Shown piece after piece: positions 8,805 to 41,305 of a stretch of 64,000 nt of DNA. Position 1 is the stretch's first letter, and the number at the start of each line of letters is the position of its first letter. A program made the position numbers and the translations under genes. This DNA comes from Thermodesulfobacteriota bacterium (GTDB taxonomy: Bacteria > Desulfobacterota > Desulfobacteria > Desulfobacterales > SURF-7), in NCBI GenBank assembly GCA_049320885.1, contig JBMORA010000035.1, positions 39,054-103,053 on the forward strand, given 5' to 3'. The notes below the pieces were generated by a model. That model was not told the DNA's origin. It searched no databases and was given only the letters and a program-made list of their open reading frames with translations.

Positions 8805-8860
8805 GAATCCGTGGATAATAAAATGAACCACGGATGTAATCAGATGGACACGGATGGATG
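8805..8860. repeat. Degenerate CACGGAT-type repeat with an 8-bp hairpin
   Basis: ATCCGTGG (8807-8814) pairs with CCACGGAT (8828-8835). It is followed by GTAATCAGATGGACACGGATGG, which resembles the TCCACAGAT-TACACAGAT-GGACACAGAT arms found in the island. Confidence 0.4.
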
Positions 8861-13015: not shown

Positions 13016-13133
13016 AACCCGGCCGGAAAGCGCATTGCCCGCTCGTAAACCAGCAATGATATCCCGGCCCGGTTCGATGGTTCTTTTCACCGTAAACCGA
13101 ATCTGACCCACCGAAACCCAATCTCCGAAACAA

Positions 13134-13164
13134 GGTCATATATGACCATTGGTTACATATGACC
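13134..13164. promoter_or_regulatory. Tandem 14-bp palindromes, candidate activator-binding site (UAS) copy 1
   Basis: GGTCATATATGACC (13134-13147, perfect palindrome), ATT, GGTTACATATGACC (13151-13164). Nearly identical to 17074-17104. Lies ~100 bp upstream of a -24/-12-like motif. Confidence 0.55.
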
Positions 13165-16977: not shown

Positions 16978-17073
16978 ATATGGGTACAACCGGCTTAATT
17001 AAAAAATTGTTATGATATCAATATGTTTATTATTTGAAAGACGGTTGCCGGGAGAAGACGGGACACAAAGCAA

Positions 17074-17104
17074 GGTCATATATGACCATTGGTCATATAT
17101 GACC
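17074..17104. promoter_or_regulatory. Tandem 14-bp palindromes, candidate activator-binding site (UAS) copy 2
   Basis: GGTCATATATGACC (17074-17087), ATT, GGTCATATATGACC (17091-17104). It lies ~97 bp upstream (minus-strand sense) of the promoter-like motif at 16963-16977. Confidence 0.55.
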
Positions 17105-17205
17105 TTGCATCGCCGACAATTCTGATATTGGCGGCACTCAGCTTGAAATGATCACGAAACTCCTGAAAATATGTTGGCTCGGTTTTCCCGCCTTCACTGA
17201 GCGGG

Positions 17206-17432: not shown

Positions 17433-17494
17433 GTTTTTTTATCTGTGTCCATCCGAGCAATCTGTGGATAAACCGCTTTTCCCGCCGGCGGCAG
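17433..17494 (-). repeat. CACAGAT-type arm, inverted orientation
   Basis: The reverse complement reads CTGCCGCCGGCGGGAAAAGCGGTTTATCCACAGATTGCTCGGATGGACACAGATAAAAAAAC. This matches the left arms at 37931, 40027 and 41168. Confidence 0.7.
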
Positions 17495-17948
17495 AGAGAT
17501 TGATCCAAAAGATTTTTTGAAGATGGTTTCCGTCCTGTGTCCGCAGCTGACACACCATTGTGATACAGATAAACACAATCGGATTTTTCAATCCCCGATG
17601 AAAAAAGTATAGCATAAACAAATCAATGTATTATGGCGCTTTTTCATGGAAAAGACAATACAATTGAAATGTTAGGGTGATTGGTTCGAAAATGATGAAT
17701 AAATAAATACTTATCGGTATTGACAAGCCGCTGGCTTTCAGGTTTAGATAAAAATCTTCTTAATATTGTTAAAGTCGGGCGTTCATTTCCATTGATTTTC
17801 AGAGGTTGGCCATCGGCGTGGCCTATCTGGTGAAGCTGGCCCTGGACGCTACGCCTCCGGATCAGATGACCCCCGAACTCCTGGACTTCAGCCACGGCAT
17901 CTCCCTCGAGTTCGACAAAGCGATCCACTTCGAGATGCTTGAAAAAGA

Positions 17949-17987
17949 CTATCCACAGATGATGCAGATTAACACAGATGAAAACCG
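17949..17987 (+). repeat. CACAGAT-type arm, forward orientation
   Basis: ACTATCCACAGATGATGCAGATTAACACAGATGAAAACCG, just upstream of the DUF1016 gene. Confidence 0.7.
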
Positions 17988-19085: not shown

Positions 19086-19408
19086 GTGCATACCCCTCAT
19101 TTGATCCGGGCACAGTTGAGGCCATTGCCAAGATGATAGGCGAAGGCTGGATCGCCGAAGAAGCCGTGGCCCTGGCCCTCTACTGTTTTCTCAAACACCC
19201 CGACATCTACGCCGACACCGTCATCCGCGCTGCCAACACCAACACCAACGGCGACTCGGATTCCATTGCCTGCATCGCCGGGGGGATCAGTGGTGCGTAT
19301 CTGGGGGTTGCGGCGATTTCCGGTGAATGGGTCAGACGGGTTGAAAAGATGGAATACCTGGACACTTTGGCGATTCGACTGGTTGAAAAAAAAGAGTTCA
19401 AGGTTTGA
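19082..19408 (+). pseudogene. C-terminal fragment of an ADP-ribosylglycohydrolase-family protein
   Basis: 108 aa with ...EEAVALALYCFLKHPD...DTVIRAANTNTNGDSDSIACIAGGISGAYLG... This matches only the last third of ARH/DraG-like enzymes. Its ATG overlaps the DUF1016 stop (ATGA). Confidence 0.6.
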
Positions 19409-19435
19409 AAGTTCAAGGTTCAGGGTTGAAAAACA
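19396..19435 (+). repeat. GTTCAAGGTT-type tandem arm
   Basis: GTTCAAGGTT TGAAA GTTCAAGGTT CAGGGTT GAAAAAC. Confidence 0.7.
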
Positions 19436-21017: not shown

Positions 21018-21165
21018 GCTGGTTCAAGGTTGAAAAGTTCAAGGTTCAAGGTTGCCAGGTTCAATGTATAAGGTTGGTTGTTACGGGGCTTTCAAACTTT
21101 GAACCTTGAACATTTGAACTTTGAACAGTCTTTACCTTTGAACCAGTTAACTTTGAACTTACTAT
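21018..21165. repeat. ~150-nt imperfect hairpin built from GTTCAAGGTT / AACCTTGAAC units
   Basis: Left arm CTGGTTCAAGGTTGAAAAGTTCAAGGTTCAAGGTTGCCAGGTTCAA. Right arm TTCAAACTTTGAACCTTGAACATTTGAACTTTGAACAGTCTTTACCTTTGAACCAGTT. There is no ORF between the arms. It ends 17 nt before the HNH gene. Confidence 0.75.
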
Positions 21166-21181: not shown

Positions 21182-22135
21182 ATGATCGAAGCCTATATTG
21201 AAAAATTCAAAAAGCTGCGGACTGACAGGAATCGAAAAATCTGGACGGAGCGCACTTCTTACCGCGCGCCCCACAAACCTTTCCTGCTGCTCTCGATCAT
21301 GGATCTCATCAACCAGGGAGACATCACCGCCAATTTCATTGAACCGACCTTCGACCTGGTGGAGATGTTCAATACCTACTGGTCGGCCGTCATGCCGCCC
21401 GCAGCCTCCACCAGTATGGCCTATCCGTTTTATCATATGCGCAGCGAAGGCTTCTGGAAGCTCGTACCGGACATCGACACCCCGGTTTATTCCGTCAGTA
21501 AATTGCGTGAGCACTACCAGGGTGCCATCATCGACGAGACCCTGTTCCTACTCTTACAGCAGTCCGCCAGCCAGCACCAGCTGCGCACAGCCCTGATCAC
21601 CACCTATTTCGCCCCGGACCTGCAGCCATTAGTCTTCGAACAGGGCGTAGTAAGCTACCAGGCCCATGCCTATGGCCAGGAACTGCTGCGGATTGCCGAG
21701 TCGGCAGCCGGTTTTGAAAAGACTGTGCCGCCGGCCCTCCAGGAACCGAAAGTCCGCGACCAGGCCTTCCGCAAGGTGATCGTATCCCTGTACAACCACC
21801 GCTGTGCCCTCTGCGGCATCCGCATGCTCACCCCCGAAGGCCATACCGTGGTGGAAGCCGCCCACATCGTCCCTTGGCATAAAAGCCAGGATGATCGGCC
21901 CAGCAATGGGCTTTCTCTCTGCCGCCTCTGCCACTGGTCTTTTGACGAGGGCCTCATGAGCGTTGGTAAAGAGTACGAAGTCCTGGTTTCCAAACGCGTC
22001 ACTCTGGAAAACAATTTTCCAGGGCATATGTTGACTCTTTCGGACCGACGGATCTTCCGTCCCGATGATCAAAAATATTGGCCGGATCAGGAGAATTTAA
22101 ATTGGCATCGTCAGAAATTTTATGAAAGGTTGTAA
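21182..22135 (+). CDS. HNH endonuclease with a ~200-aa N-terminal domain of unknown function
   Basis: HNH core [53 protein letters not shown]. The N-terminus contains [20 protein letters not shown]. It sits directly upstream of hsdR. Confidence 0.8.
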
Positions 22136-22190
22136 AAATCCGGATCAGACGCTATCAATTCACGAGTGTCCAAGAGGGTTTGTGGCCCAT

Positions 22191-24575
22191 ATGGATAAAA
22201 AAAAGCTGAGTGAACGCGACATCTGCACCAAATTCATCACCCCGGCTCTGGAACGCGCGGGTTGGGATATCAGCACCCAGGTTCGGGAAGAATTTCCCCT
22301 TACCAACGGGCGTATCATCGTGCGTGGCAAGCTGTATACCCGCGCCAAGCACAAGCGCGCCGATTATGTCCTGTTTTACAAGCCGAATATTCCCATTGCC
22401 ATTATCGAAGCCAAGGACAACAACCACACGGTTGGCGATGGCATGCAACAGGCCCTGGGCTATGCTGACATGCTGCAAGTGCCGTTTGTATTCAGCTCCA
22501 ACGGCGATGGCTTTTTGTTTCACAACAGAATTGCCGCAGATGGCGTTATCGAGCGTGAGCTCTCACTTAACGAATTTCCCTCTGTGGAAACATTATGGCA
22601 ACTATGGGGGCAACATCGCGGGCTGAACGACCAGCAGAATGCGTTGGTCACGCAGGATTATTATAGCGACGTAAGCGGCAAGAACCCGCGCTATTACCAG
22701 TTATTGGCCATTAACAAAACCATTGAGGCAATCGCTCAGGGGAAAAATCGTATTCTTCTGGTGATGGCAACCGGCACCGGCAAAACCTTCACCGCCTTTC
22801 AAATCATCTGGCGTTTATGGAAGTCCAGGGCAAAAAAACGAATCCTGTTTCTTGCCGACCGCAACATTTTGATCGACCAGACCATGACCAATGATTTCAA
22901 ACCATTCGGTTCGGCCATGACCAAGATCCAGAAGCGGCAGACCAATAAGTCCTACGAGATTTACCTTTCCCTCTATCAGGCTGTTACCGGAAATGAGGAA
23001 GAGAAAAACATTTATAAGCAGTTCAGCCCCGATTTTTTCGATCTGATCATTATTGATGAATGCCATCGGGGCAGTGCGGCCGCCGATTCGGCCTGGCGTG
23101 AAATCCTCGAATATTTCACCTCCGCCACCCAGATCGGTCTTACCGCCACCCCCAAGGAGACCAAAGAAGTTTCCAATATCGATTACTTTGGCGACCCCAT
23201 CTATACTTACAGTCTTCGGCAGGGAATCGACGACGGTTTCCTTGCCCCTTATAAGGTCGTGCGCATCGATTTCGACCGGGATTTGACCGGCTGGCGACCC
23301 GACAAGGGCATGATCGACAAGTACGGCAACGAAATCGAGGACCGCATTTACAACCAAAAGGATTTCGACAAGACCCTGGTCCTTGAACAGCGCACCCAGT
23401 TGGTGGCCAAAAAGATCACCGAATTCCTCAGGCAGACCAACCGCTTCGACAAAGCCATCGTCTTTTGCGAAAACATCGACCATGCCGAGCGCATGCGCCA
23501 GGCCCTGGTCAATGAAAACGCCGACCTGGTGGCGCAAAACAGCAAATACGTCATGCGCATCACCGGCGACAACGAGGAAGGCAAAGCCGAGCTCGATAAC
23601 TTCATTTTTCCGGAGAGTAAATACCCGGTTATTGCCACCACTTCCAAGCTGATGACCACCGGCGTGGATGCTCAGACCTGCAAACTCATCGTGCTCGACC
23701 AGCGCATTCAGTCCATGACCGAATTCAAGCAGATCATCGGGCGCGGCACCCGCATCAATGAAGACTACGGCAAGTACTATTTCACCATCATTGACTTTAA
23801 AAAGGCCACCGAGTTGTTTGCCGACCCTGATTTCGACGGTGATCCGGTCCAGATCTACGAACCCAAGGGGGATGAATCACCGGTGCCGCCGGATATTCCC
23901 GGCGAGGCCGAAAGTGGCAGCGGCGTCACCTACCCGGAACCAGGAGGCGAGCAGGATTGGACCGGCGTCGCCGAACCCGGCCCAGAAGAGGAGGGCGACG
24001 GAACTCGCCGTTACGTCGTGGCCAATGTCGAGGTCAAGGTTGCCGCCGAGCGCGTCCAGTATTTCGACGCCAACGGTAAACTGATCACCGAATCCCTCAA
24101 GGACTACACCCGCAAGGCCCTGGCTAGGGAATACGCCTCCCTCGACGATTTCCTCCGCCGCTGGACCAGCACCGAAAAGAAGCAGGCCATCATCGACGAA
24201 CTCTCCGAACAGGGGGTGTTCTTCGATGCCCTTGCCGATGAGATCGGGCGGCAATCCGGCAAAGCATTCGATCCGTTCGATCTGGTCTGCCATGTCGCTT
24301 GGGATATGCCGCCTCTTACCCGCAAGGAACGGGCGGAACAGGTGAAGAAACGTAACTACTTCACCCAATACGGCGAGCAGGCCCGTCGCGTGCTGGAAGC
24401 GCTGCTCGACAAGTACGCCGATGAAGGCGTGGCCCCCATCGAAGAGACGCAGATTCTCACCATTGCCCCTTTTACCAAATTCGGCACCCCGCTGGAAATT
24501 ATCCGCGCCTTTGGGGGGCTGGATCAGTATCAGCAGGCTGTGCATGAGCTGGAGGATGCGCTTTATGCCGGATAA
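22191..24575 (+). CDS. hsdR: Type I restriction enzyme R subunit
   Basis: N-terminus [26 protein letters not shown]. Helicase motifs [14 protein letters not shown] and [11 protein letters not shown]. EcoEI-R-like C-terminal domain ([23 protein letters not shown]). Start moved to ATG 22191. Confidence 0.95.
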
Positions 24576-25029
24576 ACAAACCTCACACGAAGGCACGAAA
24601 ACACGAAGGGATAAAGAAGGGTTATCCAAGATCGTTGTGGATTGTGCATACCGGATGCATGTTGAGATCGGGCCGGGGTTGCTCGAGTCTGTTTATGAGG
24701 CGGTACTGGAGAAACTGCTATTGGAGAAAGGTCTCAGGGTAAATCGACAAAAGTCCATACCGATTGAGGTGATGGGTCTTTCCATCCATGAAGGATTCAG
24801 GGCTGATCTGATCGTGGAGGATCTTCTGCTGATTGAGCTTAAATCAGTAGAAAAACTCGCCCCGGTTCATTCCAAACAAGTCCTGACCTACCTTCGGCTT
24901 CTCAATCTGCCTCTCGGACTCCTCCTCAACTTCGGCGCAGCCACGTTCAAAGAAGGCTGCAAGCGCATCGTCAACGGCAAACAGGACTTCGTGTCTTCGT
25001 GCCTTCGTGTGAACCAAAAAGGATACTAA
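24565..25029 (+). CDS. GxxExxY-family (PD-(D/E)XK-like) small protein
   Basis: Core [52 protein letters not shown]...[21 protein letters not shown], with G-L-L-E-S-V-Y as the name motif. N-terminal HEGTKTRR and C-terminal FVSSCLRV are translations of the flanking inverted repeat, so the true start is uncertain. Confidence 0.75.
24582..25012. repeat. CACGAAG-type inverted repeat pair enclosing the GxxExxY gene
   Basis: Left arm 24582-24609 is CTCACACGAAGGCACGAAAACACGAAGG. Right arm 24987-25012 is CTTCGTGTCTTCGTGCCTTCGTGTGA. The reverse complement of the right arm matches the left arm at all but ~2 positions. Confidence 0.85.
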
Positions 25030-25031
25030 TC

Positions 25032-26498
25032 ATGTCACTGACCAACCTGATCAAAACCATTCAGGACATCATGCGCAAGGATGTCGGCGTCGATGGCGAC
25101 GCTCAGCGCATCAGCCAGATGGTCTGGCTGATTTTCCTGAAGATCTTCGACGACAAGGAGCAGGAGTGGCAGCTCACCGTGCCCGGCTACAAATCGCCGC
25201 TGCCCAGCCGTTTCCGCTGGTCCAGCTGGGCCAAGAACCCCGAGGGGATGACCGGCGAGGAATTGATCGACTTCGTCAACAATGACCTCTTCCCGGCGCT
25301 TAAAAAACTGGCCATCACAGCCGGCGTGTCGACCCATGGCAAGGTGGTCGGTTCGGTGTTCGAGGACGCCTACAACTATATGAAATCAGGTCATCTCCTG
25401 CGCCAGGTGATCAACACCATCGAAGCGGATGTGGACTTCAACAAATCCAGCGACCGGCACCTGTTCAACGACATCTACGAAAAGATTCTTTCTGACCTGC
25501 AATCGGCCGGTAACGCAGGTGAATACTACACCCCCCGCGCCGTCACCCGGTTCATGGTCGACATGCTCGATCCTCGACTCGGGCAAACCATTCTCGACCC
25601 GGCCTGCGGCACCGGCGGCTTTCTGACCTGCGCCATCGAGCACCTGAACAAGCAGGTCAAAACCGCCGAGGACCGCAAGCGCCTGCAGGGGTGTATCCAC
25701 GGCGTGGAGAAGAAACCCCTGCCGCACATGCTGGCCATGACCAACATGATGCTGCACGGCATCGATGTGCCCACCAACGTCCACCACGACAACACCCTGA
25801 GCCGACCGCTGAAGGATTACGGCCCCCGCGACCGGGTTGACCTGATCATCACCAACCCGCCCTTTGGCGGCATGGAAGAGGATGGAATCGAGAATAACTT
25901 CCCGCGCAAGTACCAGACCCGCGAGACCGCCGACCTCTTCATGGCGCTGATCATGCACCGCTTGAAGCACGATACCGGCAAGGCCGCCGTGGTTCTGCCC
26001 GACGGCTTTCTGTTCGGCGAGGGAACCAAAACCAATCTGAAGCGCGAATTGTTGGAGGAATTCAATCTGCACACCATCGTGCGCCTCCCCAAAGGCGTGT
26101 TCAGCCCCTATACCAGTATCGCCACCAACATCCTCTTTTTCGAAAAAGGCGATCCGACCAAGGAGGTCTGGTTCTTCGAGCACCCGTATCCTGAGGGCTA
26201 CAAATCCTACTCCCGCTCCAAGCCCCTGACCATCGCCGAGTTCGATCTCGAAAAAGCCTGGTGGGGCGGAGCCGGGCGCAAGGGCCGCAAGACCACCGAA
26301 CAGGCCTGGAAGGTTTCGGCCAAGGAACTGGCTGAACGCAACTACAACCTGGACTGCAAGAACCCGCACCAGGTGGAGGTCAACCACCGCGATCCGGAAG
26401 AGTTGATGGCCGAATACCGGCAGATCGTCCACCAGCTCGAAGCGGCGCAGGCAGCCTTGAAAGCCGAGTTGACGGCCTGCCTGGGGGGCAAGTCATGA
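25032..26498 (+). CDS. hsdM: Type I restriction-modification N6-adenine DNA methyltransferase subunit
   Basis: MSLTNLIKTIQDIMRKDVGVDGDAQRISQMVWLIFLKIFDD. SAM motif ILDPACGTGGFL. Catalytic motif LIITNPPFGG. Confidence 0.95.
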   Translation: MSLTNLIKTIQDIMRKDVGVDGDAQRISQMVWLIFLKIFDDKEQEWQLTVPGYKSPLPSRFRWSSWAKNPEGMTGEELIDFVNNDLFPALKKLAITAGVSTHGKVVGSVFEDAYNYMKSGHLLRQVINTIEADVDFNKSSDRHLFNDIYEKILSDLQSAGNAGEYYTPRAVTRFMVDMLDPRLGQTILDPACGTGGFLTCAIEHLNKQVKTAEDRKRLQGCIHGVEKKPLPHMLAMTNMMLHGIDVPTNVHHDNTLSRPLKDYGPRDRVDLIITNPPFGGMEEDGIENNFPRKYQTRETADLFMALIMHRLKHDTGKAAVVLPDGFLFGEGTKTNLKRELLEEFNLHTIVRLPKGVFSPYTSIATNILFFEKGDPTKEVWFFEHPYPEGYKSYSRSKPLTIAEFDLEKAWWGGAGRKGRKTTEQAWKVSAKELAERNYNLDCKNPHQVEVNHRDPEELMAEYRQIVHQLEAAQAALKAELTACLGGKS

Positions 26499-27655
26499 GC
26501 GACGTGCAGTTGACAACTCCGGAATACCGCGACTGGCTGAAGGAGATCAAGCAGCGATTGCGGCAGGCGCAGGTGAAGGCGGCGGTGCAGGTGAATACCG
26601 CCTTGCTGACCTTCTACTGGGAGCTGGGCGCGGACATTGTGGAGCGCCAGAAATCGGCTCTATGGGGCAGCGGATTTCTGAAACAGTTGAGCGCCGACCT
26701 GATGGCGGAGTTTCCGGACATGAAGGGGTTTTCGCGGCGGAACCTTGAACAGATTCGCCGCTGGTATCTGTTTTATGCCGAAGGGATTACAAATTGCGCA
26801 ACAAGCTGTGGCACAATTGGGCAGCAAGCTGTTGTCCAATTACCGGAAAAGAGGGGAGAATCAATTGCGAAGCAGCCTGCTGCGCAATTGGCCGACAGTT
26901 CAGTTCCGTCACACCTCGTGGCCAAATTGGTTCAGATTCCCTGGTGGCATAATGTGGTGATTATCTCCAAATGCAAGGATGTGACCGAAGCGATTTACTA
27001 TGTAAACAAGACCATCGATCATAACTGGAGCCGGAATGTCCTGACCCACCAGATTGAGAGCGGTTTGTATGTGCGCGAGGGAAAGGCGGTCACCAATTTT
27101 GCACAGACCTTACCGGCTCCACAGTCGGATTTGGCGCAACAGTTGATGAAAGATCCCTACAATTTTGATTTTTTAACGCTGACCAAAGACTACAACGAAC
27201 GGGAGCTTGAAAAGGCGCTGACTGACCATATCACCAAATTTCTTTTAGAGCTGGGTGCCGGTTTCGCCTATGTGGGACGCCAAAAAGAGTTGCAGGTGGG
27301 TGAGCGGGATTTCTTCCTCGATTTGCTATTTTACCACACCAAACTTCATTGCTATGTCGTCATTGAGCTCAAGACCGGCGAGTTTGAACCGGAGTATGCC
27401 GGTAAACTTAATTTTTATCTGAAGGCGGTGGATGAGCAGCTGCGCGGGGATCGGGATGAGCCGACCATTGGCATTCTGCTCTGCAAAACCCGAGATCGCG
27501 TCGTGGTGGAGTATGCGCTGAGTGACATTAGCAAACCCATGGGCGTTTCGGAATACCAGCTTACCCGCGCCCTGCCGGATAACCTGAAATCGAGCCTGCC
27601 CTCCATTGAGGAACTGGAAGCGGAGTTCGGCAACCCGGAGGGAGATGATGAATAA
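26495..27655 (+). CDS. DUF1016 (YhcG-like) PD-(D/E)XK nuclease-family protein, copy 2, between hsdM and hsdS
   Basis: 386 aa. QAQVKAAVQVNTALLTFYWELGADIVERQ...NWSRNVLTHQIESGLY...YNFDFLTLTKDYNERELEKAL...FAYVGRQKELQVGERDFFLDLLFYHTKLHCYVVIELKTGEF. Its start overlaps the hsdM stop (ATGA). Confidence 0.9.
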   Translation: MSDVQLTTPEYRDWLKEIKQRLRQAQVKAAVQVNTALLTFYWELGADIVERQKSALWGSGFLKQLSADLMAEFPDMKGFSRRNLEQIRRWYLFYAEGITNCATSCGTIGQQAVVQLPEKRGESIAKQPAAQLADSSVPSHLVAKLVQIPWWHNVVIISKCKDVTEAIYYVNKTIDHNWSRNVLTHQIESGLYVREGKAVTNFAQTLPAPQSDLAQQLMKDPYNFDFLTLTKDYNERELEKALTDHITKFLLELGAGFAYVGRQKELQVGERDFFLDLLFYHTKLHCYVVIELKTGEFEPEYAGKLNFYLKAVDEQLRGDRDEPTIGILLCKTRDRVVVEYALSDISKPMGVSEYQLTRALPDNLKSSLPSIEELEAEFGNPEGDDE

Positions 27656-27664
27656 CGGGATGGT

Positions 27665-27843
27665 CTCACACGAAGGCACGAAGACACGAAGTTTTGAAAA
27701 CAGTCGTTATACCCGCGAAGGCGGGTACCCAGATTCGTGGCAACGATTTATCCAACGGCTTGCTGCACTATTTCCAATTATTCAGACCGGGAGGGGGGTA
27801 TGACCAGTTCGTCCTCCTTCGTGCCTTCGTGTCTTCGTGTGAG
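27665..27843. repeat. CACGAAG-type inverted repeat pair without cargo
   Basis: Left arm 27665-27691 is CTCACACGAAGGCACGAAGACACGAAG. Right arm 27817-27843 is CTTCGTGCCTTCGTGTCTTCGTGTGAG. The 125-nt interior holds the hairpin ACCCGC-GAAG-GCGGGT (27711-27726) and GGGAGGGGGGTATG, which is the hsdS SD and start. Confidence 0.85.
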
Positions 27844-29842
27844 CGATCTGCTGGAACAGCATTTCGACACCGCCTTTGCCGCGCCTGCCGGTATCGCCAA
27901 ACTGCGCGAGTTGATCTTGACCCTCGCCATGCAGGGCAAGCTGGTGGAACAGGACCCGAACGACCCACCCGCCAGCGAGTTGCTGAAGGAGATCGAAGCC
28001 GAAAAACAGCAGCTTGTGAAAGCGGGCAAGATTAAAAAGCCCAAGCCGCTGCCGCCCATTAAGCCGGAGGAAGTGCCCTACGAACTGCCGGAGGGATGGG
28101 AGTGGGCGAGGCTCGGTGAAATAACTGAATACAACGGTCGAAAAAATATCTCGGGCGATGAGATAGCCCCCGATACATGGTTGCTTGATCTCGAAGACAT
28201 TGAAAAGGGAACTTCTCGTATTCTGTTCCGAGCAAAGTTTTCAGAGCGCCAATCAAAATCTACGAAATCAACCTTTCAGAAAGGTGATGTGCTTTATGGC
28301 AAACTTCGTCCCTATCTCGACAAGGTTGTGGTAGCAGATGCTGATGGAGTTTGCACGACTGAGATTGTGCCCATCGTTCCGTTTAACGGAATACATTCTG
28401 AATTTCTCAGGTGGTTACTAAAGCGCCCTGCATTTATAACCCATGTTAACTCTCTCATGTATGGCGTCAAAATGCCCAGGCTTGGCACAGATGATGCTTT
28501 AACGAGTATTCACCCGCTTCCCCCCCTCCCCGAACAACACCGCATCGTCGCCCGCATCAACCAGTTGATGACCCGTTGTGATGAGTTGGAAAAGCTGCAC
28601 AAACAGCGGGAGGAGAAGCGGCTGGCCGTCCACGCCGCCGCCATCAAGCAACTGCTCGACCCGCCGGACCTGTCTGCCGGCCAGGCAGGCGGCTCGGCCT
28701 GGGACTTTATCCAACAGCACTTCGACGACCTCTACACCGTCAAGGAAAACGTCGCCGAACTGCGCAAGGCCATCCTCCAACTCGCCGTAATGGGCCGCCT
28801 CGTTCCCCCTGCCTGCCGGCAGGCAGGCAAGACCCCAACGACCCTCCCACCACCAGAACCTGGATCATGGTGGGTGTACGTTATTGAGTGCGAAAATGGA
28901 TCATTCTATAAAGGTTTTACAGAAGATCTTCCGCGTCGCTGGCGGCAACATCTATCAGGTACTGCGAGCGAATGGACAAAAAAGCATCCACCCAAACAGG
29001 TTTACTACTGGGAAAAATGTTTTTCAAAAGAAGCAGCCATTAAGCGGGAAGACTATTTGAAATCAGGCTTTGGTCGAGAATGGTTCAAGCGCGAGGTGGT
29101 TGATAATCAAAAAGCATGGCAGACCGCCAGCGAACTGCTCAAAGAGATCGAAGCCGAAAAACAGCGACTGATGAAGGCAGGTAAAATCAAGAAGCCCAAG
29201 CCCGTACCGCCCATCAAGCCGGAGGAAGTGCCCTACCAACTGCCGCAGGGCTGGGAGTGGGTGCGATTTGGAAAAGTTGCGAGCAACCGACTAGGAAAAA
29301 TGCTCGATAAATCTAAGAATCGAGGTAACCCAAAACCATATTTGAGAAATACCAATGTTCAATGGCATCAGTTTGTTCTTGATGATGTCAAAGAGATGAA
29401 ATTCGAAGATGAAGAGCTTGATGAATTTCGTGTACTTCCCGGTGACCTTCTAATATGCGAAGGTGGTGAACCCGGTCGCTGTGCAATATGGCGCGATTCA
29501 GAGGTAGAAATCTATTTCCAGAAAGCCATACATAGAGCGAGGCCGTTTTCGTGCGTTACTTCTGAGTATCTGCAAGTTTGCCTTACAAACGATGGGGGTA
29601 ACGGTCAGTTGGAAAAGTATTTCACTGGGGCAACAATCAAGCATTTCCCTGGTGACAAGCTTAATGGGTATGTCATTCCTCTACCACCTCTTCCCGAACA
29701 ACACCGCATCGTCGCCCGCATCGATCAGTTGATGGCCCTGTGCGACACACTCGACCAGCAGATCGACGCTGCCACCGGCAAAAAGACCGAACTGCTGGAC
29801 GCCGTGATGGCCCGCCTGTCGGCAGACACGGCCCAGGTATAA
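27800..29842 (+). CDS. hsdS: Type I R-M specificity subunit with a GIY-YIG nuclease domain embedded in the central conserved region
   Basis: Two TRDs, each preceded by ASELLKEIEAEKQ.L.KAGKIKKPKP.PPIKPEEVPY.LP.GWEW and followed by LPPLPEQHRIVARI.QLM. Between them sits WWVYVIECENGSFYKGFTEDLPRRWRQHLSG...QVYYWEKCFSKEAAIKREDYLKSGFGREW (GIY-YIG/UPF0213-like). Start set at ATG 27800, behind GGGAGGGGGG. Confidence 0.85.
   Translation: MTSSSSFVPSCLRVSDLLEQHFDTAFAAPAGIAKLRELILTLAMQGKLVEQDPNDPPASELLKEIEAEKQQLVKAGKIKKPKPLPPIKPEEVPYELPEGWEWARLGEITEYNGRKNISGDEIAPDTWLLDLEDIEKGTSRILFRAKFSERQSKSTKSTFQKGDVLYGKLRPYLDKVVVADADGVCTTEIVPIVPFNGIHSEFLRWLLKRPAFITHVNSLMYGVKMPRLGTDDALTSIHPLPPLPEQHRIVARINQLMTRCDELEKLHKQREEKRLAVHAAAIKQLLDPPDLSAGQAGGSAWDFIQQHFDDLYTVKENVAELRKAILQLAVMGRLVPPACRQAGKTPTTLPPPEPGSWWVYVIECENGSFYKGFTEDLPRRWRQHLSGTASEWTKKHPPKQVYYWEKCFSKEAAIKREDYLKSGFGREWFKREVVDNQKAWQTASELLKEIEAEKQRLMKAGKIKKPKPVPPIKPEEVPYQLPQGWEWVRFGKVASNRLGKMLDKSKNRGNPKPYLRNTNVQWHQFVLDDVKEMKFEDEELDEFRVLPGDLLICEGGEPGRCAIWRDSEVEIYFQKAIHRARPFSCVTSEYLQVCLTNDGGNGQLEKYFTGATIKHFPGDKLNGYVIPLPPLPEQHRIVARIDQLMALCDTLDQQIDAATGKKTELLDAVMARLSADTAQV
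28808..28827. repeat. Perfect 20-nt palindrome CCTGCCTGCCGGCAGGCAGG inside hsdS
   Basis: Read directly from the sequence. It lies between CTCGTTCCC (LVP) and CAAGACCCCAACGACCCTCCC, which would encode QDPNDPP only in the +2 frame. Confidence 0.9.
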
Positions 29843-29851
29843 GGAGATGCC

Positions 29852-29981
29852 ATGCGCCTGACATCACTTTATATCGGCCAGTACAAGAACCTTCGGGATT
29901 TTTCTCTGAGGTTCGACCTGCCGGCCGGGCAGGCGGGCGGCAGCAACTTTATCGATGTCTTTGTCGGCAATACCGTCGGCC
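29852..29981 (+). pseudogene. 5' stub of an R-M-linked ATPase-like gene, joined to a NERD-gene fragment and cut by the IS
   Basis: Strong SD (AAGGAG) and MRLTSLYIGQYKNLRDFSLRFD...SNFIDVFVG resemble the N-terminus of AAA_15/21-type ATPases up to where Walker A should begin. From ~29965, TCGGCAATACCGTCGGCC matches the NERD copies (32596.., 38281..). Confidence 0.4.
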
Positions 29982-30212
29982 TGATGTGGTTTAATGAGAG
30001 CGGACACTGAGTCAAGCGTGGTTTTTTAATCGGCTTAGAAACATAGACAAAACAGAAGGTTTTTGTTATCTGGCACGGCAACTAGCCGGAAAGGTTATTT
30101 GCGAGAATGGGCTATAGGTGCTCGTCGGAGCAAATAAACTTTCCGGCGGGTCCCAGGATTCGGCTTGGATAGCGGATATGTTTCGGGAGCTATTACGCAG
30201 ACGAGGTGTTCA

Positions 30213-30515
30213 ATGGGTGAAAAGAAGCAGCGAAAAGATTACACGGATGAATTTAAACTGGATGCCGTCAAGCTAGTTATCGAACAAGGGTACTCCACCC
30301 CTGAGGTTGGCCGGCGGCTGGGGATCAATCATACCAACGTCTCAAGATGGGTTCGGGAATATCATGCAAAGATAGGTGTCCCTTCCAAAAGTTCAGGTGC
30401 TGTCCAGGAACTGGAGGAGGAGGTAAAACGCCTCAGAAAAGAAAACAAACGCCTTTTGATGGAGCGAGAAATCTTAAAAAAGGCGGCGGCCTTCTTTGCG
30501 AACGAATCGAACTGA
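30213..30515 (+). CDS. IS3 transposase OrfA (HTH)
   Basis: MGEKKQRKDYTDEFKLDAVKLVIEQGYSTPEVGRRLGINHTNVSRWVREY...LMEREILKKAAAFFA. The slippery heptamer AAAAAAG lies at 30476-30482. Confidence 0.85.
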   Translation: MGEKKQRKDYTDEFKLDAVKLVIEQGYSTPEVGRRLGINHTNVSRWVREYHAKIGVPSKSSGAVQELEEEVKRLRKENKRLLMEREILKKAAAFFANESN

Positions 30516-31383
30516 GGTTCGATTTTATCCGGCAGCAAATGAAGGCCTATCCCGTAACCGTCTTATGTTCGGTGATGCGGGTTAGCCGGGGTGGGTTCTA
30601 TGGCTATCTGAAACGATTCAATGCTGGGAAGAATCGTCCAGAAGAGACCGAATTGGGGAAGCGAATCAAAGAAATATTCAACGATCACAAAAACTGCTAC
30701 GGATCCCGACGGATCGCAAGGCAATTAAGGGATGAAGGCCAGCCGGTGGGCCGATATAAAGTGCGACGGATCATGCGCCAGTTGTGGGGCTGAAGGCAAA
30801 AACTCCCAAGCGGTTCAAGCTGACGACCGACAGCCGACATTCGTTCCCGGTGGCGCCCAATACCCTGAATCGGAAATTCACGGTTGATGCTCCGAACAAG
30901 GTCTGGACGGCGGATATCACCTATGTATGGACCTTTGAAGGTTGGTTATACCTGGCGGTTGTCATGGACCTGTATTCCCGCCGGATTGTCGGGTGGGCCA
31001 TGAGTGAAAGAATGCAGAAGCAGCTTGTGCTGGATGCCCTGGCCATGGCGTATTGGCAGCGGAAGCCCTCAAAGGGTCTTTTGCATCATTCGGATCGCGG
31101 AAGTCAGTATGCCTGCCATGAATACAGGAAGCGGCTTAAAGGCTATGGCATGGAGGCCAGCATGAGCAGAAAGGGAAACTGCTGGGATAATTCACCAATG
31201 GAACGCTTTTTCCGCTCCTTGAAATCAGAACGGTTGACCGCTTGCCGTTTTGTGTCACGGAATGAAGCAAAAATGGAAATACTGGACTATATTACATTCT
31301 ATAACAGCATTCGGCTTCATTCGACATTGGGGTACGTATCTCCGATGGCTTATGAGAAAAAACAGTACTTAAAGGTGGCTTGA
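30476..31383 (+). pseudogene. IS3 transposase OrfB (DDE), entered by -1 frameshift and then broken by an extra frameshift
   Basis: The -1 frame continues from the A6G site. DDE region WTADITYVWT...HSDRGSQYA...NSPMERFFRSLKSE. The frame breaks at ~30784 (CAGTTGTGGGGCTGA where CAGTTGGGGCTGAAG is expected), which looks like a 2-nt TG insertion. Confidence 0.75.
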
Positions 31384-31413
31384 TTTTGTGTCCGTTTTTC
31401 CTTGACCATTACA

Positions 31414-31594
31414 GCCTGGTTGTTTTTGGAGTGAAGGACTCGGGGCTTGAGCAGATCGTCGCGGCTGATCCGCATCAGTTCCGGCTCAATATGGGGGGCG
31501 TGACCGAGAACCGGAAAAATTCATACCAGCAGGCCCGGGAATATTTCTACCAGTTGATGAACCGCATCCACAATCACAAACCGAATCAGAGTCA
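31414..31594 (+). pseudogene. NERD-domain gene fragment (third copy), continuing from 29965-29981 across the IS
   Basis: LVVFGVKDSGLEQIVAADPHQFRLNMGGVTENRKNSYQQAREYFYQLMNRI aligns with residues ~57-107 of the NERD proteins at 32443 and 38124. Homology ends at ~31570. Confidence 0.7.
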
Positions 31595-32063
31595 GACTTA
31601 CCCGCAATGCTCGGGTCCGTGGAATTATGGAGGCCGTGACGAATGCATGATACGACCAAGCCATTGATGGTTAGCGAGGATAGTGTTTCATATGGGGGGG
31701 AAAAGCCATGATGACCCTTCGGCTTTTCTCCGGGAAATTTGAATCCGTGCCGGCCGCCACATCCTGGTACTTGGCAGACCTTGGCGAGGCGCGTGGCAAA
31801 CAGGAATTGTTTACCCGTCAATCGCCGCAGCGTCTCAAGGCTTTGCGGGAGCACGCCCTCATTGAAAGCGCCGTATCATCCAACCGGATCGAGGGCGTGG
31901 AGGTCGAGCAATCCCGAATCGCCACCATCGTCTTCGGCCAGCCGCTTCTGCGGGACCGTGATGAGGAGGAAGTCCGGGGATACCGGCAGGCCCTGACCTG
32001 GATTCATGAGCAAGGGGCGAAAATCCCGATATCGGAAGAGACCGTTTTACAGCTCCATCATAT
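31595..32063 (+). repeat. 469-bp direct repeat, copy 1 (fic upstream region and Fic N-terminal domain)
   Basis: Colinear with 34809-35277 at equal length. I count about five substitutions and no net indel. Confidence 0.85.
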
Positions 32064-32295
32064 GACACGCGGGGAAATCTGGGATGCCGGAAAATACAAA
32101 AATAAAGACGGCGACATTATCGAAAAGTTTCCGGATGGCAGGTCGCGGGTCCGCTTCAAAACCGTTCCGGCGAAAGACACGCCGAGTTTCATGAAGGATC
32201 TGGTCGAGTTGTACGACGATGCCATCGAGGATCGCAAAGTCCCGCCGCTTGTCCTTTTAGCCGCCCTCAACCTCGATTGGGGCGGCAAGTGTTGA
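31708..32295 (+). pseudogene. Fic-family protein truncated before the catalytic HPFxxGNGR motif
   Basis: Fic_N-like region with the inhibitory-helix motif SSNRIEG ((S/T)xxxE(G/N)). It ends ...LLAALNLDWGGKC*, where Fic proteins continue into the HPF motif. Confidence 0.7.
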
Positions 32296-35737: not shown

Positions 35738-35884
35738 GTTCACGCGAAGACGCGAAGAGCGCGAAGGGAAAAGCGGTTTAACCACGGATTACACGGATTG
35801 CACGGATGAAAAACCAAAAGATGGTTTTTTGCCTCCGGCAGGAAAAAACTTGCTTCTCTTCGCGCTCATCGCGGCTTCGCGTGA
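35738..35884. repeat. Nested inverted-repeat element: CGCGAAG-type arms enclosing a CACGGAT-type left arm
   Basis: Outer arms are TTCACGCGAAGACGCGAAGAGCGCGAAGG and CTTCTCTTCGCGCTCATCGCGGCTTCGCGTGAG. The interior is GCGGTTTAACCACGGATTACACGGATTGCACGGATGAAAAACC...TTTTTGCCTCCGGCAGGAAAAAAC. Confidence 0.8.
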
Positions 35885-37930: not shown

Positions 37931-38066
37931 GGGTTATCCACAGATGACACAGATTGACACAGATTAAAAACAAAAAAGAAGGGTTCTTTTGCCTCCGGCA
38001 GGGAAAAGGATATCATTTTTTTCAGTTATCTGTGTAAATCGGTGTAATCGGTGGATATAAAAAAAC
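37931..38066 (+). repeat. CACAGAT-type intergenic element, copy A (left arm, centre, right arm)
   Basis: Left arm GGGTTATCCACAGATGACACAGATTGACACAGATTAAAAAC. Centre with TTTTGCCTCCGGCAGGGAAAAG. Right arm TCAGTTATCTGTGTAAATCGGTGTAATCGGTGGATATAAAAAAAC. Confidence 0.85.
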
Positions 38067-40026: not shown

Positions 40027-40161
40027 GGTTTATCCACAGATTACACAGATGGACACAGATGAAAAACGAAAAAAGTTGCATTATTCTGCCTCCGGCAGGA
40101 AAAGAATATCATTTTTTTCAGTTATCTGTGTAAATCGGCGTAATCGGCGGATAGAAAAAAG
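40027..40161 (+). repeat. CACAGAT-type intergenic element, copy B
   Basis: Left arm GGTTTATCCACAGATTACACAGATGGACACAGATGAAAAAC. Centre ...TTCTGCCTCCGGCAGGAAAAG... Right arm TCAGTTATCTGTGTAAATCGGCGTAATCGGCGGATAGAAAAAAG. Confidence 0.85.
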
Positions 40162-41246: not shown

Positions 41247-41305
41247 TTGTTTTATTTTTTTAATTATCTGCGTGAATCGGCGTAATCGGCGGATAGAAAA
41301 AAAGC
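41168..41305 (+). repeat. CACAGAT-type intergenic element, copy C
   Basis: Left arm AGGTTATCCACAGATTACACAGATGGACACAGATGAAAAAC. Centre ...TTTTGCCCCCGGCAGGGAAAT... Right arm TTAATTATCTGCGTGAATCGGCGTAATCGGCGGATAGAAAAAAAGC. Confidence 0.85.

What the first reader, a model, noticed from the sequence alone, without database searches (positions are those of the whole stretch)
27665..27843. A cargo-less copy of the CACGAAG element supplies the SD, ATG and first 14 codons of hsdS
Between the DUF1016 stop (27655) and the hsdS body lies a second arm pair: 27665-27691 CTCACACGAAG-GCACGAAG-ACACGAAG and 27817-27843 CTTCGTGC-CTTCGTGT-CTTCGTGTGAG. Only 125 nt lie between them and they contain no ORF of their own. 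The interior contains the hairpin ACCCGC-GAAG-GCGGGT and then GGGAGGGGGGTATG. This is the best SD/start for hsdS (27800). The right arm is translated as SSFVPSCLRVS before the conserved HsdS N-terminus (DLLEQHFDTAFAAP). Translation initiation of the specificity subunit is therefore embedded in a potential 27-bp stem. The order of the middle and inner octamers is swapped between the two arms (G-then-A versus A-then-G), so the stem is imperfect in a patterned way.
Basis: seen in the sequence. Interest (0 to 1): 0.6.

Follow-up and report, generated by a model that had tools for sequence, protein, structure and literature searches.

The report
Hairpin insertion that re-started hsdS
A 179-base hairpin-forming selfish DNA element sits inside the sixth codon of a restriction-enzyme specificity gene, and the gene now appears to be translated from a replacement start site inside the element; the element belongs to a widespread family, linked to a small nuclease gene, that I could not find described in the papers searched.

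Summary
The arms at 27665-27691 and 27817-27843 are 25/27 complementary and lie 125 nt apart.

- Element boundaries. The element is exactly 27665-27843 (CTCA...TGAG).
- Insertion site. Removing it here and in three related operons restores MNNxxxxLLEQHFD. That matches element-free homologues. The element therefore lies after nt 17 of an ancestral hsdS, whose ATG (27648) overlaps the DUF1016 stop.
- Leader ORF. The old start now opens a 51-codon ORF. It runs through the left arm and interior and ends in an ATGA overlap with ATG 27800. The interior is therefore not ORF-less.
- New start. "ATG + 5 codons + right arm" is kept in five operons. NCBI annotates the 680-aa HsdS from ATG 27800.
- Cargo. 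Sister operons (L133, L128) carry a GxxExxY nuclease gene in the element at the same junction.
- Interior. It holds an NTS/SRM-like hairpin and a relic resembling DUF1016_N.
- The octamer "swap". It is ordinary: spacer positions pair in only 28 of 72 cases.

The arm type occurs in many phyla. It brackets nearly all close GxxExxY homologues. Its closest analogue is the Ssn/NTS nuclease-repeat system.

The parts
27637..27641 (+). GGAGG Shine-Dalgarno of the ancestral hsdS start. It now serves the leader ORF and lies inside the last codons of DUF1016.
   Evidence: Read from the sequence. Homologous to CCGGAGGGCGGCAATGAATAA in front of the element-free hsdS in L005.
27648..27803 (+). Leader ORF of 51 codons: [51 protein letters not shown]. 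Its ATG is the ancestral hsdS start and overlaps the DUF1016 stop (ATGAATAA). Its TGA overlaps the present hsdS ATG (ATGA).
   Evidence: The same arrangement is open in L132 (93 codons) and L130 (66 codons), with 0 stops against 1-4 stops in the other frames. Shuffles leave the frame open in 13%, 3% and 2% of trials.
27665..27843 (+). The inserted element as a whole (CTCA...TGAG, 179 nt).
   Evidence: Removing CTCA...TGAR in the window, L132, L128 and L130 restores MNN(G/R)x(V/A)(D/N)LLEQHFDTAF. L130 gives MNKQNIEILEQ. These are colinear with element-free L005 (MNKHTARLLEQHFD) and with L133 hsdS (MNKETARLLERHFD).
27665..27691 (+). Left arm: CTCA + 3 x CACGAAG, spacers G and A. Read as SHEGTKTR in the leader ORF.
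27705..27732 (+). Solo NTS/SRM-like hairpin: CGTTATACCCGCGAAGGCGGGTACCCAG.
   Evidence: 24/28 match to the consensus CGTCATTCCCGCGMAVGCGGGAATCYRG of the Ssn paper (PMC11893778). The T7-A22 pair is changed to A-T. Homologous hairpins occur in the L132, L131 and L130 leaders. It is the only match in the window.
27728..27785 (+). Sequence resembling a fragment of a DUF1016 N-terminal domain. The window copy carries an 84-nt internal deletion relative to L001 and L132.
   Evidence: BLASTP of the L001 leader peptide against L125/L126 DUF1016 residues 80-123 gives 18/44 identities, E = 4e-6 in a three-sequence search. The window copy itself is too short to score on its own (E = 0.06).
27789..27798 (+). 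Replacement Shine-Dalgarno GGGAGGGGGG. GGAGG ends 5 nt before the ATG.
   Evidence: Conserved in L132 and L001, weaker in L130, and GAGG in L128.
27800..29842 (+). hsdS as now expressed: 680 aa. The first 14 codons lie inside the element. The protein also contains an in-frame GIY-YIG domain.
   Evidence: Pfam Methylase_S and GIY-YIG. The exact 680-aa product is NCBI MFZ5571772.1.
27817..27843 (+). Right arm: 3 x CTTCGTG, spacers C and T, + TGAG. Translated as FVPSCLRV(S).
   Evidence: It is read in the same frame as the right arm of the cargo-bearing copy (FVSSCLRV).
27839..27841 (+). In-frame GTG at the end of the right arm. This is the alternative hsdS start and would give MSDLLEQHFD.
   Evidence: Read from the sequence. 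It has no SD and is fully paired in the predicted stem.
24582..25013 (+). Cargo-bearing sister copy (CTCA...TGAA, 432 nt) in the hsdR-hsdM spacer. Its GxxExxY ORF (24565-25029) starts at a host ATG overlapping the hsdR stop and ends 2 nt before the hsdM ATG.
   Evidence: PF13366 E = 1e-35 and TIGR04256 E = 2.5e-36. Translation. Related operons L127 and L128 have an uninterrupted 26-27-nt spacer at this place.

Best explanation
The 179-nt unit at 27665-27843 is a cargo-less, decayed copy of a hairpin-ended insertion element. Its ends are inverted arrays of the heptamer CACGAAG at 8-nt spacing. Full-size relatives carry a GxxExxY (PD-(D/E)XK) nuclease gene.

Shown or strongly inferred:
- In an ancestor of this type I R-M operon family the element landed after nucleotide 17 of hsdS.
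- The original hsdS ATG (27648) overlaps the stop codon of the upstream DUF1016 gene.
- The insertion cut the old SD/ATG off from the body of the gene.

Inferred from five related operons and from the annotation:
- HsdS is now made from a replacement SD (27789-27798) and ATG (27800). They lie inside the element, six codons before the right arm.
- The right arm has no stop codon in the reading frame and is simply translated (FVPSCLRV).

Inferred mechanism, not tested:
- The old start still fires. It now drives a 51-codon leader ORF through the left arm, an NTS-like hairpin and a DUF1016-like relic.
- The leader ORF terminates in an ATGA overlap with the new start.
- Ribosomes coming from DUF1016 and the leader would melt the 27-bp stem and the local SD hairpin, then re-initiate on hsdS.
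- HsdS synthesis would therefore stay translationally coupled to the upstream genes despite the insertion.
- Untranslated mRNA would fold into a long duplex that hides the start.

The arms also act as recombination breakpoints in this operon family.
For: Anatomy.

Insertion site and boundaries:
- Excising CTCA...TGAR restores a colinear hsdS N-terminus in 4 of 4 operons.
- The restored start context CCGGAGGG-N5-ATGAATAA matches the real hsdS start of the element-free L005 and of L133.

Replacement start:
- ATG + 5 codons + right arm is kept in the window, L001, L132, L130 and L128, although the sequence around it differs.
- NCBI annotates the product from ATG 27800.

Leader ORF:
- It is open from ATGAATAA to ATGA in three leaders of 153, 279 and 198 nt, while the other frames hold stops.

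Element identity:
- The same left junction (ATGAATAACGGGAGGxT|CTCA) precedes a GxxExxY-bearing copy in L133 and in L128.
- The sister copy in the window carries GxxExxY.

Family:
- There are 44 left-right pairs, including the two in the window, with interiors of 8-498 nt.
- GxxExxY lies between arms in L115 and L119, plus a disrupted copy in L123. L108 has GxxExxY between longer, less regular arm arrays. L046 has only a left arm.
- Of the 120 closest GxxExxY homologues, 99 have the ...SHEGTKTRR... N-tail and 117 the ...FVSSCLRV... C-tail. They carry 64 different prefixes and 87 different suffixes.

Arms as breakpoints:
- In L129 the left arm is fused directly to the hsdS coiled-coil region, at the place where L001 carries an in-frame SHEGTKTRR.
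Against: - No expression data exist. The start codon, the leader translation and the coupling are inferred from sequence only.
- The five operons share ancestry, so conservation of the ATG and of leader openness is not five independent observations.
- The local SD hairpin is not more stable than shuffles (z = -1.5) and is absent in L130.
- The exact right boundary is uncertain by a few bases. Cargo-bearing copies end TGAACCAA, and part of GCGAT could be element-derived.
- L133 keeps an intact hsdS start after the element, with a roughly 30-nt diverged duplication of the junction. The history may therefore involve recombination rather than one simple insertion.
- No target-site duplication is seen, and how these elements move is unknown.
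- The origin of the DUF1016-like sequence between the arms is unexplained.
- A crude test found no strand bias of G.U versus A.C mismatches relative to gene direction. There is thus no positive evidence that the RNA stem is selected.
Confidence: 0.62

Rival explanations
1. HsdS starts at the in-frame GTG 27839 at the end of the right arm, giving MSDLLEQHFD. This could happen on RNase III-processed or breathing mRNA. The ATG 27800 extension would then be an annotation artefact.
For: - The GTG product has an N-terminal length typical of homologues such as MDLLKKYFD.
- Every right arm offers GTG in all three frames because the unit is 8 nt long (read from the sequence).
- In L001 the gene caller starts the second half-hsdS at a GTG inside an arm.
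Against: - There is no SD in front of it, and it is fully paired in the predicted stem.
- It does not explain why an ATG with an SD is kept exactly 6 codons before the arm in five operons, including L128 where the surrounding sequence differs.
- It does not explain why the leader ORF ends in ATGA on that ATG in four of them.
Confidence: 0.1
2. The arm pair is kept because it works as an RNA-level switch. The 27-bp duplex would be an RNase III site or a translational attenuator that lowers HsdS relative to HsdM. This would resemble RNase III processing of inverted-repeat-flanked intervening sequences in 23S rRNA.
For: - The predicted stem is very stable (-83.8 kcal/mol, z = -4.55).
- Matched arm pairs are retained in the window, L130 and L128 with different heptamers: CACGAAG/CTTCGTG versus CGCGAAG/CTTCGCG.
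- The Coxiella 23S IVS is a selfish element carrying a small ORF (PMC4990558 abstract). That it is flanked by inverted repeats and excised by RNase III is from my own knowledge.
Against: - Spacer positions do not co-vary: 28 of 72 are Watson-Crick.
- Some pairs in other genomes have systematic mismatches in every unit (L023, L055, L065, L066).
- There is no bias of G.U versus A.C toward the sense strand.
- About a third of arms have no partner.
- The CACGAAG-to-CGCGAAG difference can be explained by differential loss of nested inner and outer arms, which are both seen in L131 and L132.
Confidence: 0.13
3. The arms matter mainly at the DNA level, as dispersed recombination sites that shuffle, delete or invert cassettes of the R-M operon. 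The unit in front of hsdS would be a scar of such events, not a single insertion.
For: - In L129 the left arm is fused directly to the inside of hsdS, consistent with a deletion between two direct left arms.
- L130 has a RhuM gene preceded by a degenerate left arm and followed by a second copy of the junction plus a left arm.
- L128 has 5 left arms and 4 right arms.
- L001 has solo right arms between its two half-hsdS genes and a solo left arm inside the first.
- The interior holds DUF1016-like sequence rather than element cargo.
- In the window, arms 24582-24609 and 27816-27843 are 89% complementary across 3.2 kb (I8).
Against: - It does not by itself explain the exact colinear restoration of hsdS on excision in four operons.
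- No recombinase is linked to the arms.
- 27-bp repeats are short for RecA-dependent exchange.
- This reading is compatible with the main explanation rather than exclusive of it.
Confidence: 0.1
4. hsdS is no longer functional. The start region, the fusion of two half genes and the GIY-YIG insertion would be neutral decay, and the conserved features would reflect recent common ancestry only.
For: - hsdS carries three further repeat or cargo insertions.
- An IS3-family transposase lies just downstream.
- Related operons show deletions: L129, L131 and the L125 DUF1016.
Against: - The 680-codon ORF is intact.
- The 20-nt palindrome and the 277-nt GIY-YIG insertion sum to 297 nt and keep the frame.
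- Downstream of the arm, differences between the window and L001 are mostly synonymous.
- The leader frame is kept across lineage-specific indels.
Confidence: 0.05

Closest known systems
Ssn / NTS (SRM) system: small GIY-YIG site-specific ssDNA nucleases flanked by their cognate hairpin repeats (Chenal et al. 2025, PMC11893778)
   Same: - A roughly 100-150-aa single-domain nuclease gene is bracketed by inverted copies of a short repeat.
- That repeat also occurs many times without the gene, across many phyla.
- The authors describe the repeat-gene-repeat architecture as identical to that of insertion sequences.
- An NTS-like hairpin (24/28 match) actually sits inside the element studied here.
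- Related operons L130 and L131 carry a 95-aa GIY-YIG gene between NTS-like arms, in the hsdR-hsdM spacer where the window has GxxExxY.
   Different: - The nuclease here is a PD-(D/E)XK fold (GxxExxY, PF13366/TIGR04256), not GIY-YIG.
- Each arm is an array of 3-14 tandem heptamers at 8-nt spacing, not a single self-folding hairpin.
- No biochemical link between GxxExxY and the arms has been shown.
Rickettsia palindromic elements (RPE); Ogata et al. 2000, from my own knowledge
   Same: Short palindromic selfish repeats inserted in frame inside protein-coding genes and translated as extra peptide segments.
   Different: - RPEs are about 100-150-nt units with no known cargo-bearing form.
- Here the element is not read through in one frame. 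It split the ORF, and a new start inside it took over.
REP/BIME and REPIN elements with RAYT (Y1 HUH) transposases; Neisseria Correia and NIME mosaics (own knowledge, and the discussion in PMC11893778)
   Same: Intergenic hairpin repeats that are co-transcribed within operons. They form mosaics of nested repeats and are associated in trans with one enzyme gene flanked by the same repeats.
   Different: - No RAYT or other transposase is linked here.
- The arms are tandem heptamer arrays.
- The elements are found inside ORFs and at start and stop codons, and they are translated.
Intervening sequences of 23S rRNA carrying a small ORF (S23p / four-helix-bundle protein), e.g. Coxiella (PMC4990558)
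   Same: A selfish insertion of about 0.4 kb with a small ORF. That it is flanked by inverted repeats forming a long stem in the transcript is from my own knowledge.
   Different: - The IVS sits in rRNA and is cut out by RNase III.
Bacterial MITEs (review PMC10969869)
   Same: A small non-autonomous unit with terminal inverted repeats, derived from or related to a larger gene-carrying element. It can donate regulatory or coding sequence to neighbouring genes.
   Different: - No target-site duplication is seen at the three insertion sites examined.
- The larger form encodes a nuclease of unknown role, not a recognised transposase.
- The interiors of short copies are unrelated between genomes.

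Membership tests
GxxExxY-associated inverted tandem-heptamer element (family defined here) | Two inverted arrays of at least 3 CACGAAG (or CGCGAAG) units at 8-nt spacing | tested here: met
   27669-27691 and 27817-27839. The same architecture occurs in 44 pairs, including the two in the window.
GxxExxY-associated inverted tandem-heptamer element (family defined here) | Terminal CTCA...TGA(A/G) just outside the arrays (one sub-class) | tested here: met
   The window copies are at 24582/25013 and 27665/27843. The same ends occur in L012, L035, L041 and L080. L021 (TGGG) and L115 (TTCA) depart by one base.
GxxExxY-associated inverted tandem-heptamer element (family defined here) | GxxExxY (PF13366/TIGR04256) gene between the arms | tested here: not met
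   No Pfam or NCBIfam hit for the interior peptide. The gene is present at the same junction in L133 and L128 and in the window's sister copy. This copy is therefore a cargo-less derivative.
MITE | Terminal inverted repeats and small size | tested here: met
   179 nt with arms 25/27 complementary.
MITE | Direct target-site duplication | tested here: not met
   The flanks GGT|...|CGA (window), GGC|...|CAA (L128) and AAC|...|CCA (24582-25013) show no direct repeat. L133 has a roughly 30-nt diverged duplication instead.
MITE | Related autonomous element encoding a transposase | tested here: inconclusive
   The larger form encodes GxxExxY. Pfam groups it in the PD-(D/E)XK nucleases with unknown function. 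No transposition activity is known.
Ssn/SRM system | Hairpin repeat matching CGTCATTCCCGCGMAVGCGGGAATCYRG | tested here: met
   27705-27732 matches 24/28 and has one compensatory pair change.
Ssn/SRM system | Adjacent ssnA-type GIY-YIG gene flanked by the repeat | tested here: not met
   There is no GIY-YIG gene in the element. The only GIY-YIG domain lies inside hsdS at 28849-29125. It is 30% identical to the L130 GIY-YIG and is not flanked by this repeat. The window has a single copy of the motif.
Type I R-M specificity subunit (HsdS) | Methylase_S target-recognition domains in an hsdR-hsdM-hsdS operon | tested here: met
   PF01420 in 27800-29842. hsdR lies at 22122-24575 and hsdM at 25032-26498.
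Phase-variable (shufflon-type) hsdS locus | Several hsdS copies in opposite orientation sharing inverted repeats, plus a site-specific recombinase | tested here: not met
   There is a single hsdS on the + strand. The ORFs scanned next to it are DUF1016 and an IS3-type transposase, and no recombinase was seen among the ORFs scanned at 21182-32295. The rest of the window was not scanned.
Any Rfam RNA family | Covariance-model match | tested here: not met
   Only a tRNA passes gathering thresholds in the window. Nothing meaningful is found at 24400-28000 at E <= 5.

The most novel reading that the evidence does not exclude
GxxExxY proteins would be a second, PD-(D/E)XK-fold family of repeat-specific nucleases, analogous to the GIY-YIG Ssn enzymes. 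Their cognate sites would be the inverted tandem-heptamer arms.

Nuclease plus arms would form a cross-phylum mobile unit built to be tolerated inside operons and ORFs:
- the arrays are open in all reading frames when the spacers are purines or C;
- the right arm offers GTG in all three frames;
- the cargo is usually translated from a start codon just outside the left arm.

The elements would hijack host start signals, force genes such as hsdS to evolve replacement starts, and serve as breakpoints that remodel restriction-modification operons.
Probability: 0.3. Interest if true: 0.8.

Novelty: new variant of a known kind. Interest (0 to 1): 0.62.

Why it matters
GxxExxY (TIGR04256/PF13366) is a very large family. 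The single search here returned about 8000 proteins at E <= 1e-10, and the family has no known function.

This locus gives a concrete hypothesis that can be tested. The protein may recognise the heptamer arrays that bracket its gene, as Ssn recognises NTS.

The locus also documents how a gene survives a selfish insertion into its sixth codon. A new SD/ATG arose inside the element, and the old start was kept as a coupling leader.

Finally, it shows that such repeats are translated into annotated proteins on a large scale. Of the 120 closest homologues, 117 carry arm-encoded tails. That matters for genome annotation and for reading R-M operon evolution.

Tried and rejected
1. ATG 27660 as the original hsdS start. 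Rejected because that triplet is AGG in L128, L129 and L132. The conserved start is ATGAATAA at 27648.
2. Joining TCA|TGA to rebuild an ancestral ATG behind a GGGAGG SD. Rejected because CTCA...TGAA are conserved ends of the element in unrelated genomes, where no gene starts at the junction.
3. Interior as a remnant of GxxExxY or of a four-helix-bundle gene. No Pfam or NCBIfam hit even at E = 10. The interior resembles DUF1016_N instead.
4. Strand-specific selection on the RNA stem, tested as G.U on the sense strand. There was no consistent pattern, and the gene calls used were crude.
5. A conserved SD-sequestering hairpin. Not supported.
6. Two metagenome scans, one for the arm/hsdS junction and one for the interior, found nothing.
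7. The exact hsdM product is not on record. The source genome was identified only through the GxxExxY and HsdS products: an NCBI MAG of Thermodesulfobacteriota, contig of 110,368 nt.
8. Literature searches for the arm sequence, GxxExxY, TIGR04256 and PF13366 found no description of these elements.
Full report
**Context**

The window comes from an NCBI MAG of Thermodesulfobacteriota (exact products P0241 and P0361). Positions 22122-29842 hold a type I R-M operon on the + strand:
- hsdR, 22122-24575;
- a GxxExxY/PDDEXK_3 ORF, 24565-25029;
- hsdM, 25032-26498;
- a DUF1016/YhcG gene, 26495-27655;
- hsdS, 27800-29842.

**Observation**

The two arms are as described. The left arm is CTCA + 3 x CACGAAG at 27665-27691. 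The right arm is 3 x CTTCGTG + TGAG at 27817-27843. They are 25/27 complementary and 125 nt apart.

The window holds 12 CACGAAG heptamers against 7.8 expected. Eleven of them form four tandem arrays in two inverted pairs. As RNA, the unit folds at -83.8 kcal/mol with z = -4.55.

The SD (27789-27798) and the ATG (27800) lie in the loop, not in the stem. In the window they pair locally with 27809-27820. That local hairpin is no better than shuffles and is not conserved in relatives.

**The sister copy**

Positions 24582-25013 (CTCA...TGAA) carry a GxxExxY gene (PF13366 E = 1e-35, TIGR04256 E = 2.5e-36).
- Its ORF begins at a host ATG (24565) that overlaps the hsdR stop.
- It reads the left arm as SHEGTKTRR and the right arm as FVSSCLRV.
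- It stops 2 nt before the hsdM ATG.
- Related operons L127 and L128 have an uninterrupted 26-27-nt hsdR-hsdM spacer. This is a filled/empty polymorphism.
- In L130 and L131 the same spacer holds a 95-aa GIY-YIG gene between NTS-like hairpin arms.

**Where the studied copy sits**

I found homologous leaders downstream of close DUF1016 homologues in L132, L130, L131, L128, L129 and L133. L001 carries one in front of a related hsdS (alignment). In L130 the leader follows a RhuM gene that lies after DUF1016.

All of them share the left junction ...GATGAATAAC(G/A)GG..|CTCA.

Cutting out CTCA...TGAR gives the following restored N-termini:

| Operon | Restored sequence |
|---|---|
| Window | ATG AAT AAC GGG ATG GT\|C GAT CTG CTG GAA = MNNGMVDLLEQHFDTAF |
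| L132 | MNNREVNLLEQ |
| L128 | MNNGRANLLEQ |
| L130 | MNKQNIEILEQ |

Element-free L005 starts MNKHTARLLEQHFD, from the same CCGGAGGG-N5-ATGAATAA context overlapping the upstream stop. The L133 hsdS starts MNKETARLLERHFD.

The element therefore lies after nt 17 of an ancestral hsdS.

**How hsdS is expressed now**

In the window, L001, L132, L130 and L128, an ATG sits exactly six codons before the right arm and in frame with the gene body:
- MTSSSS-FVPSCLRV-SDLLEQ (window);
- MTRSLS-FVPSRLRV (L001);
- MTGSPS-FVPSCLRV (L132);
- MTNSPS-FASSRLRV (L130);
- MDDSKN-FAPSRLRV (L128).

An SD precedes it in four of the five. NCBI annotates this 680-aa form.

The alternative start, GTG 27839, has no SD and is fully paired in the predicted stem.

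**The leader ORF**

The old start is still there, with GGAGG at 27637-27641 and ATG at 27648. From it a frame runs through the left arm and the whole interior to TGA 27801-27803, which overlaps ATG 27800.

The same ATGAATAA-to-ATGA frame is open in L132 (93 codons) and L130 (66 codons), despite large lineage-specific indels. The other two frames hold 1-4 stops. Shuffled sequences keep the frame open in 13%, 3% and 2% of trials.

Amino-acid changes between the window and L001 are mostly non-synonymous. The act of translation is therefore more likely to matter than the peptide.

I read this as a coupling chain: DUF1016, then leader, then hsdS. Ribosome passage would keep the stem open. This step is an inference.

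**What is inside**

Positions 27705-27732 match the NTS/SRM consensus of the Ssn nucleases at 24 of 28 positions. The next part resembles a DUF1016_N segment:
- the L001 leader against L125 DUF1016 residues 80-123 gives 18/44 identities, E = 4e-6 in a three-sequence search;
- the two show clear DNA-level similarity over roughly 80 nt;
- the window copy has lost 84 nt of it.

L131 and L132 carry a second, inner left arm of CGCGAAG type. The unit is thus a nested mosaic. I cannot say how the DUF1016-like piece got there.

**Cargo at this site elsewhere**

- L133 has ATGAATAACGGGAGGAT|CTCA-(CACGAAG)3-GxxExxY-(CTTCGTG)3-TGAACCAA. Its cargo, P0244, is 88% identical to the window's cargo. An intact hsdS start then follows, after a roughly 30-nt diverged duplication of the junction.
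- L128 has five CGCGAAG-type left arms, GxxExxY and four right arms. Its GxxExxY is in frame with the old hsdS start.

**The family**

The taxa include Verrucomicrobiota, Planctomycetota, Acidobacteriota, Gemmatimonadota, Proteobacteria, Bacteroidota, Chloroflexota and Streptomyces.
- There are 44 left-right pairs, including the two in the window. Most interiors are 8-127 nt and unrelated in sequence. A few are 183-498 nt.
- GxxExxY lies between arms in L115 and L119, plus a disrupted copy in L123. L108 has GxxExxY between longer, less regular arm arrays. L046 has only a left arm.
- Stems extend 2-8 bp beyond the arrays. The eighth base is purine-biased (G 197, A 162, C 53, T 45) and pairs Watson-Crick in only 28 of 72 cases.
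- About a third of the arms have no partner.
- Elements lie between genes in all orientations.
- Of the 120 closest GxxExxY proteins (74-100% identity, from several phyla), 99 carry ...SHEGTKTRR... and 117 carry ...FVSSCLRV.... They have 64 different prefixes and 87 different suffixes, which implies many insertion contexts. One of them (P0318) lies inside an hsdS coiled coil.

**Arms as breakpoints**

- In L129 the left arm is fused directly to ...PEEAPYELPHGWEW of hsdS. This is the place where L001 carries an in-frame SHEGTKTRR.
- L001 has solo right arms between its two half-hsdS genes.
- L130 has a RhuM cassette bounded by arm-bearing junctions.

**Comparison with known systems**

No Rfam family matches. 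The papers searched do not describe these arms or a function for GxxExxY.

The nearest known system is Ssn/NTS: a small nuclease gene flanked by its own repeat, which is also dispersed in many copies (PMC11893778). Other analogues are REP/RAYT, Correia/NIME elements, in-frame Rickettsia palindromic elements, 23S rRNA intervening sequences (PMC4990558) and MITEs (PMC10969869). The differences are listed in the structured fields.

**Verdict**

- The feature is real.
- The most informative result is that the element split the original hsdS start. A new start took over and the old one became a leader.
- The element belongs to a widespread, apparently undescribed nuclease-plus-repeat family.
- Expression, coupling, nuclease specificity and the mode of mobility remain untested.

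Noticed in passing
window 28808-28827 and 28849-29125: hsdS carries an in-frame GIY-YIG domain (PF01541) as a 277-nt insertion in the QDPNDPP|ASE linker before the second target-recognition domain. A perfect 20-nt palindrome, CCTGCCTGCCGGCAGGCAGG, is inserted 21 nt upstream of it. Each insertion alone shifts the frame. Together they add 297 nt and keep the 680-codon ORF open. The domain is 30% identical to the Ssn-like GIY-YIG of L130.
   Followed up: partly
window 28669-28692: A second tetramer palindrome (CCTGTCTGCCGGCCAGGCAGGCGG) sits exactly where two half-size hsdS genes are fused into one ORF. In L001 the two halves are separate genes at this place, with two solo right arms (CTTTGCG and CTTCGTG types) between them.
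   Followed up: partly
window 35740-35884, 37937-38056, 40035-40061, 41176-41291, 17436-17984, 21022-21126, 19389-19432, 8816-8856: The window holds many other inverted tandem-oligomer hairpin units, with other unit types: CGCGAAG, CACAGAT, CACGGAT and GTTCAAGG. Several share an interior motif TTTTGCCTCCGGCAGGAAAA. Some run into the ends of neighbouring ORFs, for example the C-terminus ...YPQITQMDTDEK of the ORF at 40308-41246.
   Followed up: no
L129 1290-1360: The left arm directly after the DUF1016 stop is fused to the inside of hsdS (...CACGAA|CCGGAAGAAGCGCCCTACGAACTGCCG). The element interior, the right arm and about 95 codons of hsdS are removed. This looks like a deletion between two direct left arms.
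   Followed up: partly
L128 6171-7009: This is a cargo-bearing copy with multiplied arms: five CGCGAAG-type left arms and four right arms, each with a roughly 20-nt partly complementary spacer. The arrangement looks like an onion of nested hairpins around GxxExxY. The GxxExxY ORF is open all the way from the old hsdS ATG (211 codons).
   Followed up: partly
L133 2990-3500: The element is flanked by a roughly 30-nt diverged direct duplication of the DUF1016-stop/hsdS-start junction (GAGGGCGAGGATGAATAACGGGAGGAT ... GAGGGGCGACCATGAATAAAGAAACCGC). As a result, both the cargo and hsdS have an ATGAATAA start.
   Followed up: no
L130 640-1010 and L131 500-1030: A 95-aa GIY-YIG gene flanked by inverted GTCATTCCCGCGCAGGCGGGAATCCAG hairpins (NTS/SRM type) occupies the hsdR-hsdM spacer. 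The window has the GxxExxY element in the same spacer. Two different nuclease-plus-repeat elements therefore use the same intergenic slot.
   Followed up: partly
P0318 (protein): A 212-aa annotated protein joins the first 58 residues of an HsdS (MSEILEQHFDTTF...EKERA) to SHEDTKTRREKE and a full GxxExxY domain. This indicates a cargo-bearing element inserted in frame in the hsdS coiled coil, at the position of the solo arm in L001.
   Followed up: no
window 13126-13164 and 17070-17112: GGTCATATATGACC palindromes are repeated about 3.9 kb apart (87% complementary over 39 nt). One site is a perfect 19+19 palindrome. They look like operator or recombination sites and seem unrelated to the heptamer arms.
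   Followed up: no
L125 5834-6004: In an element-free relative, the 160-nt DUF1016-hsdS spacer is also spanned by a small ORF (56 codons). It overlaps both neighbours by 4-8 nt and contains other small palindromes. Bridging ORFs between these two genes may be a recurrent solution.
   Followed up: no
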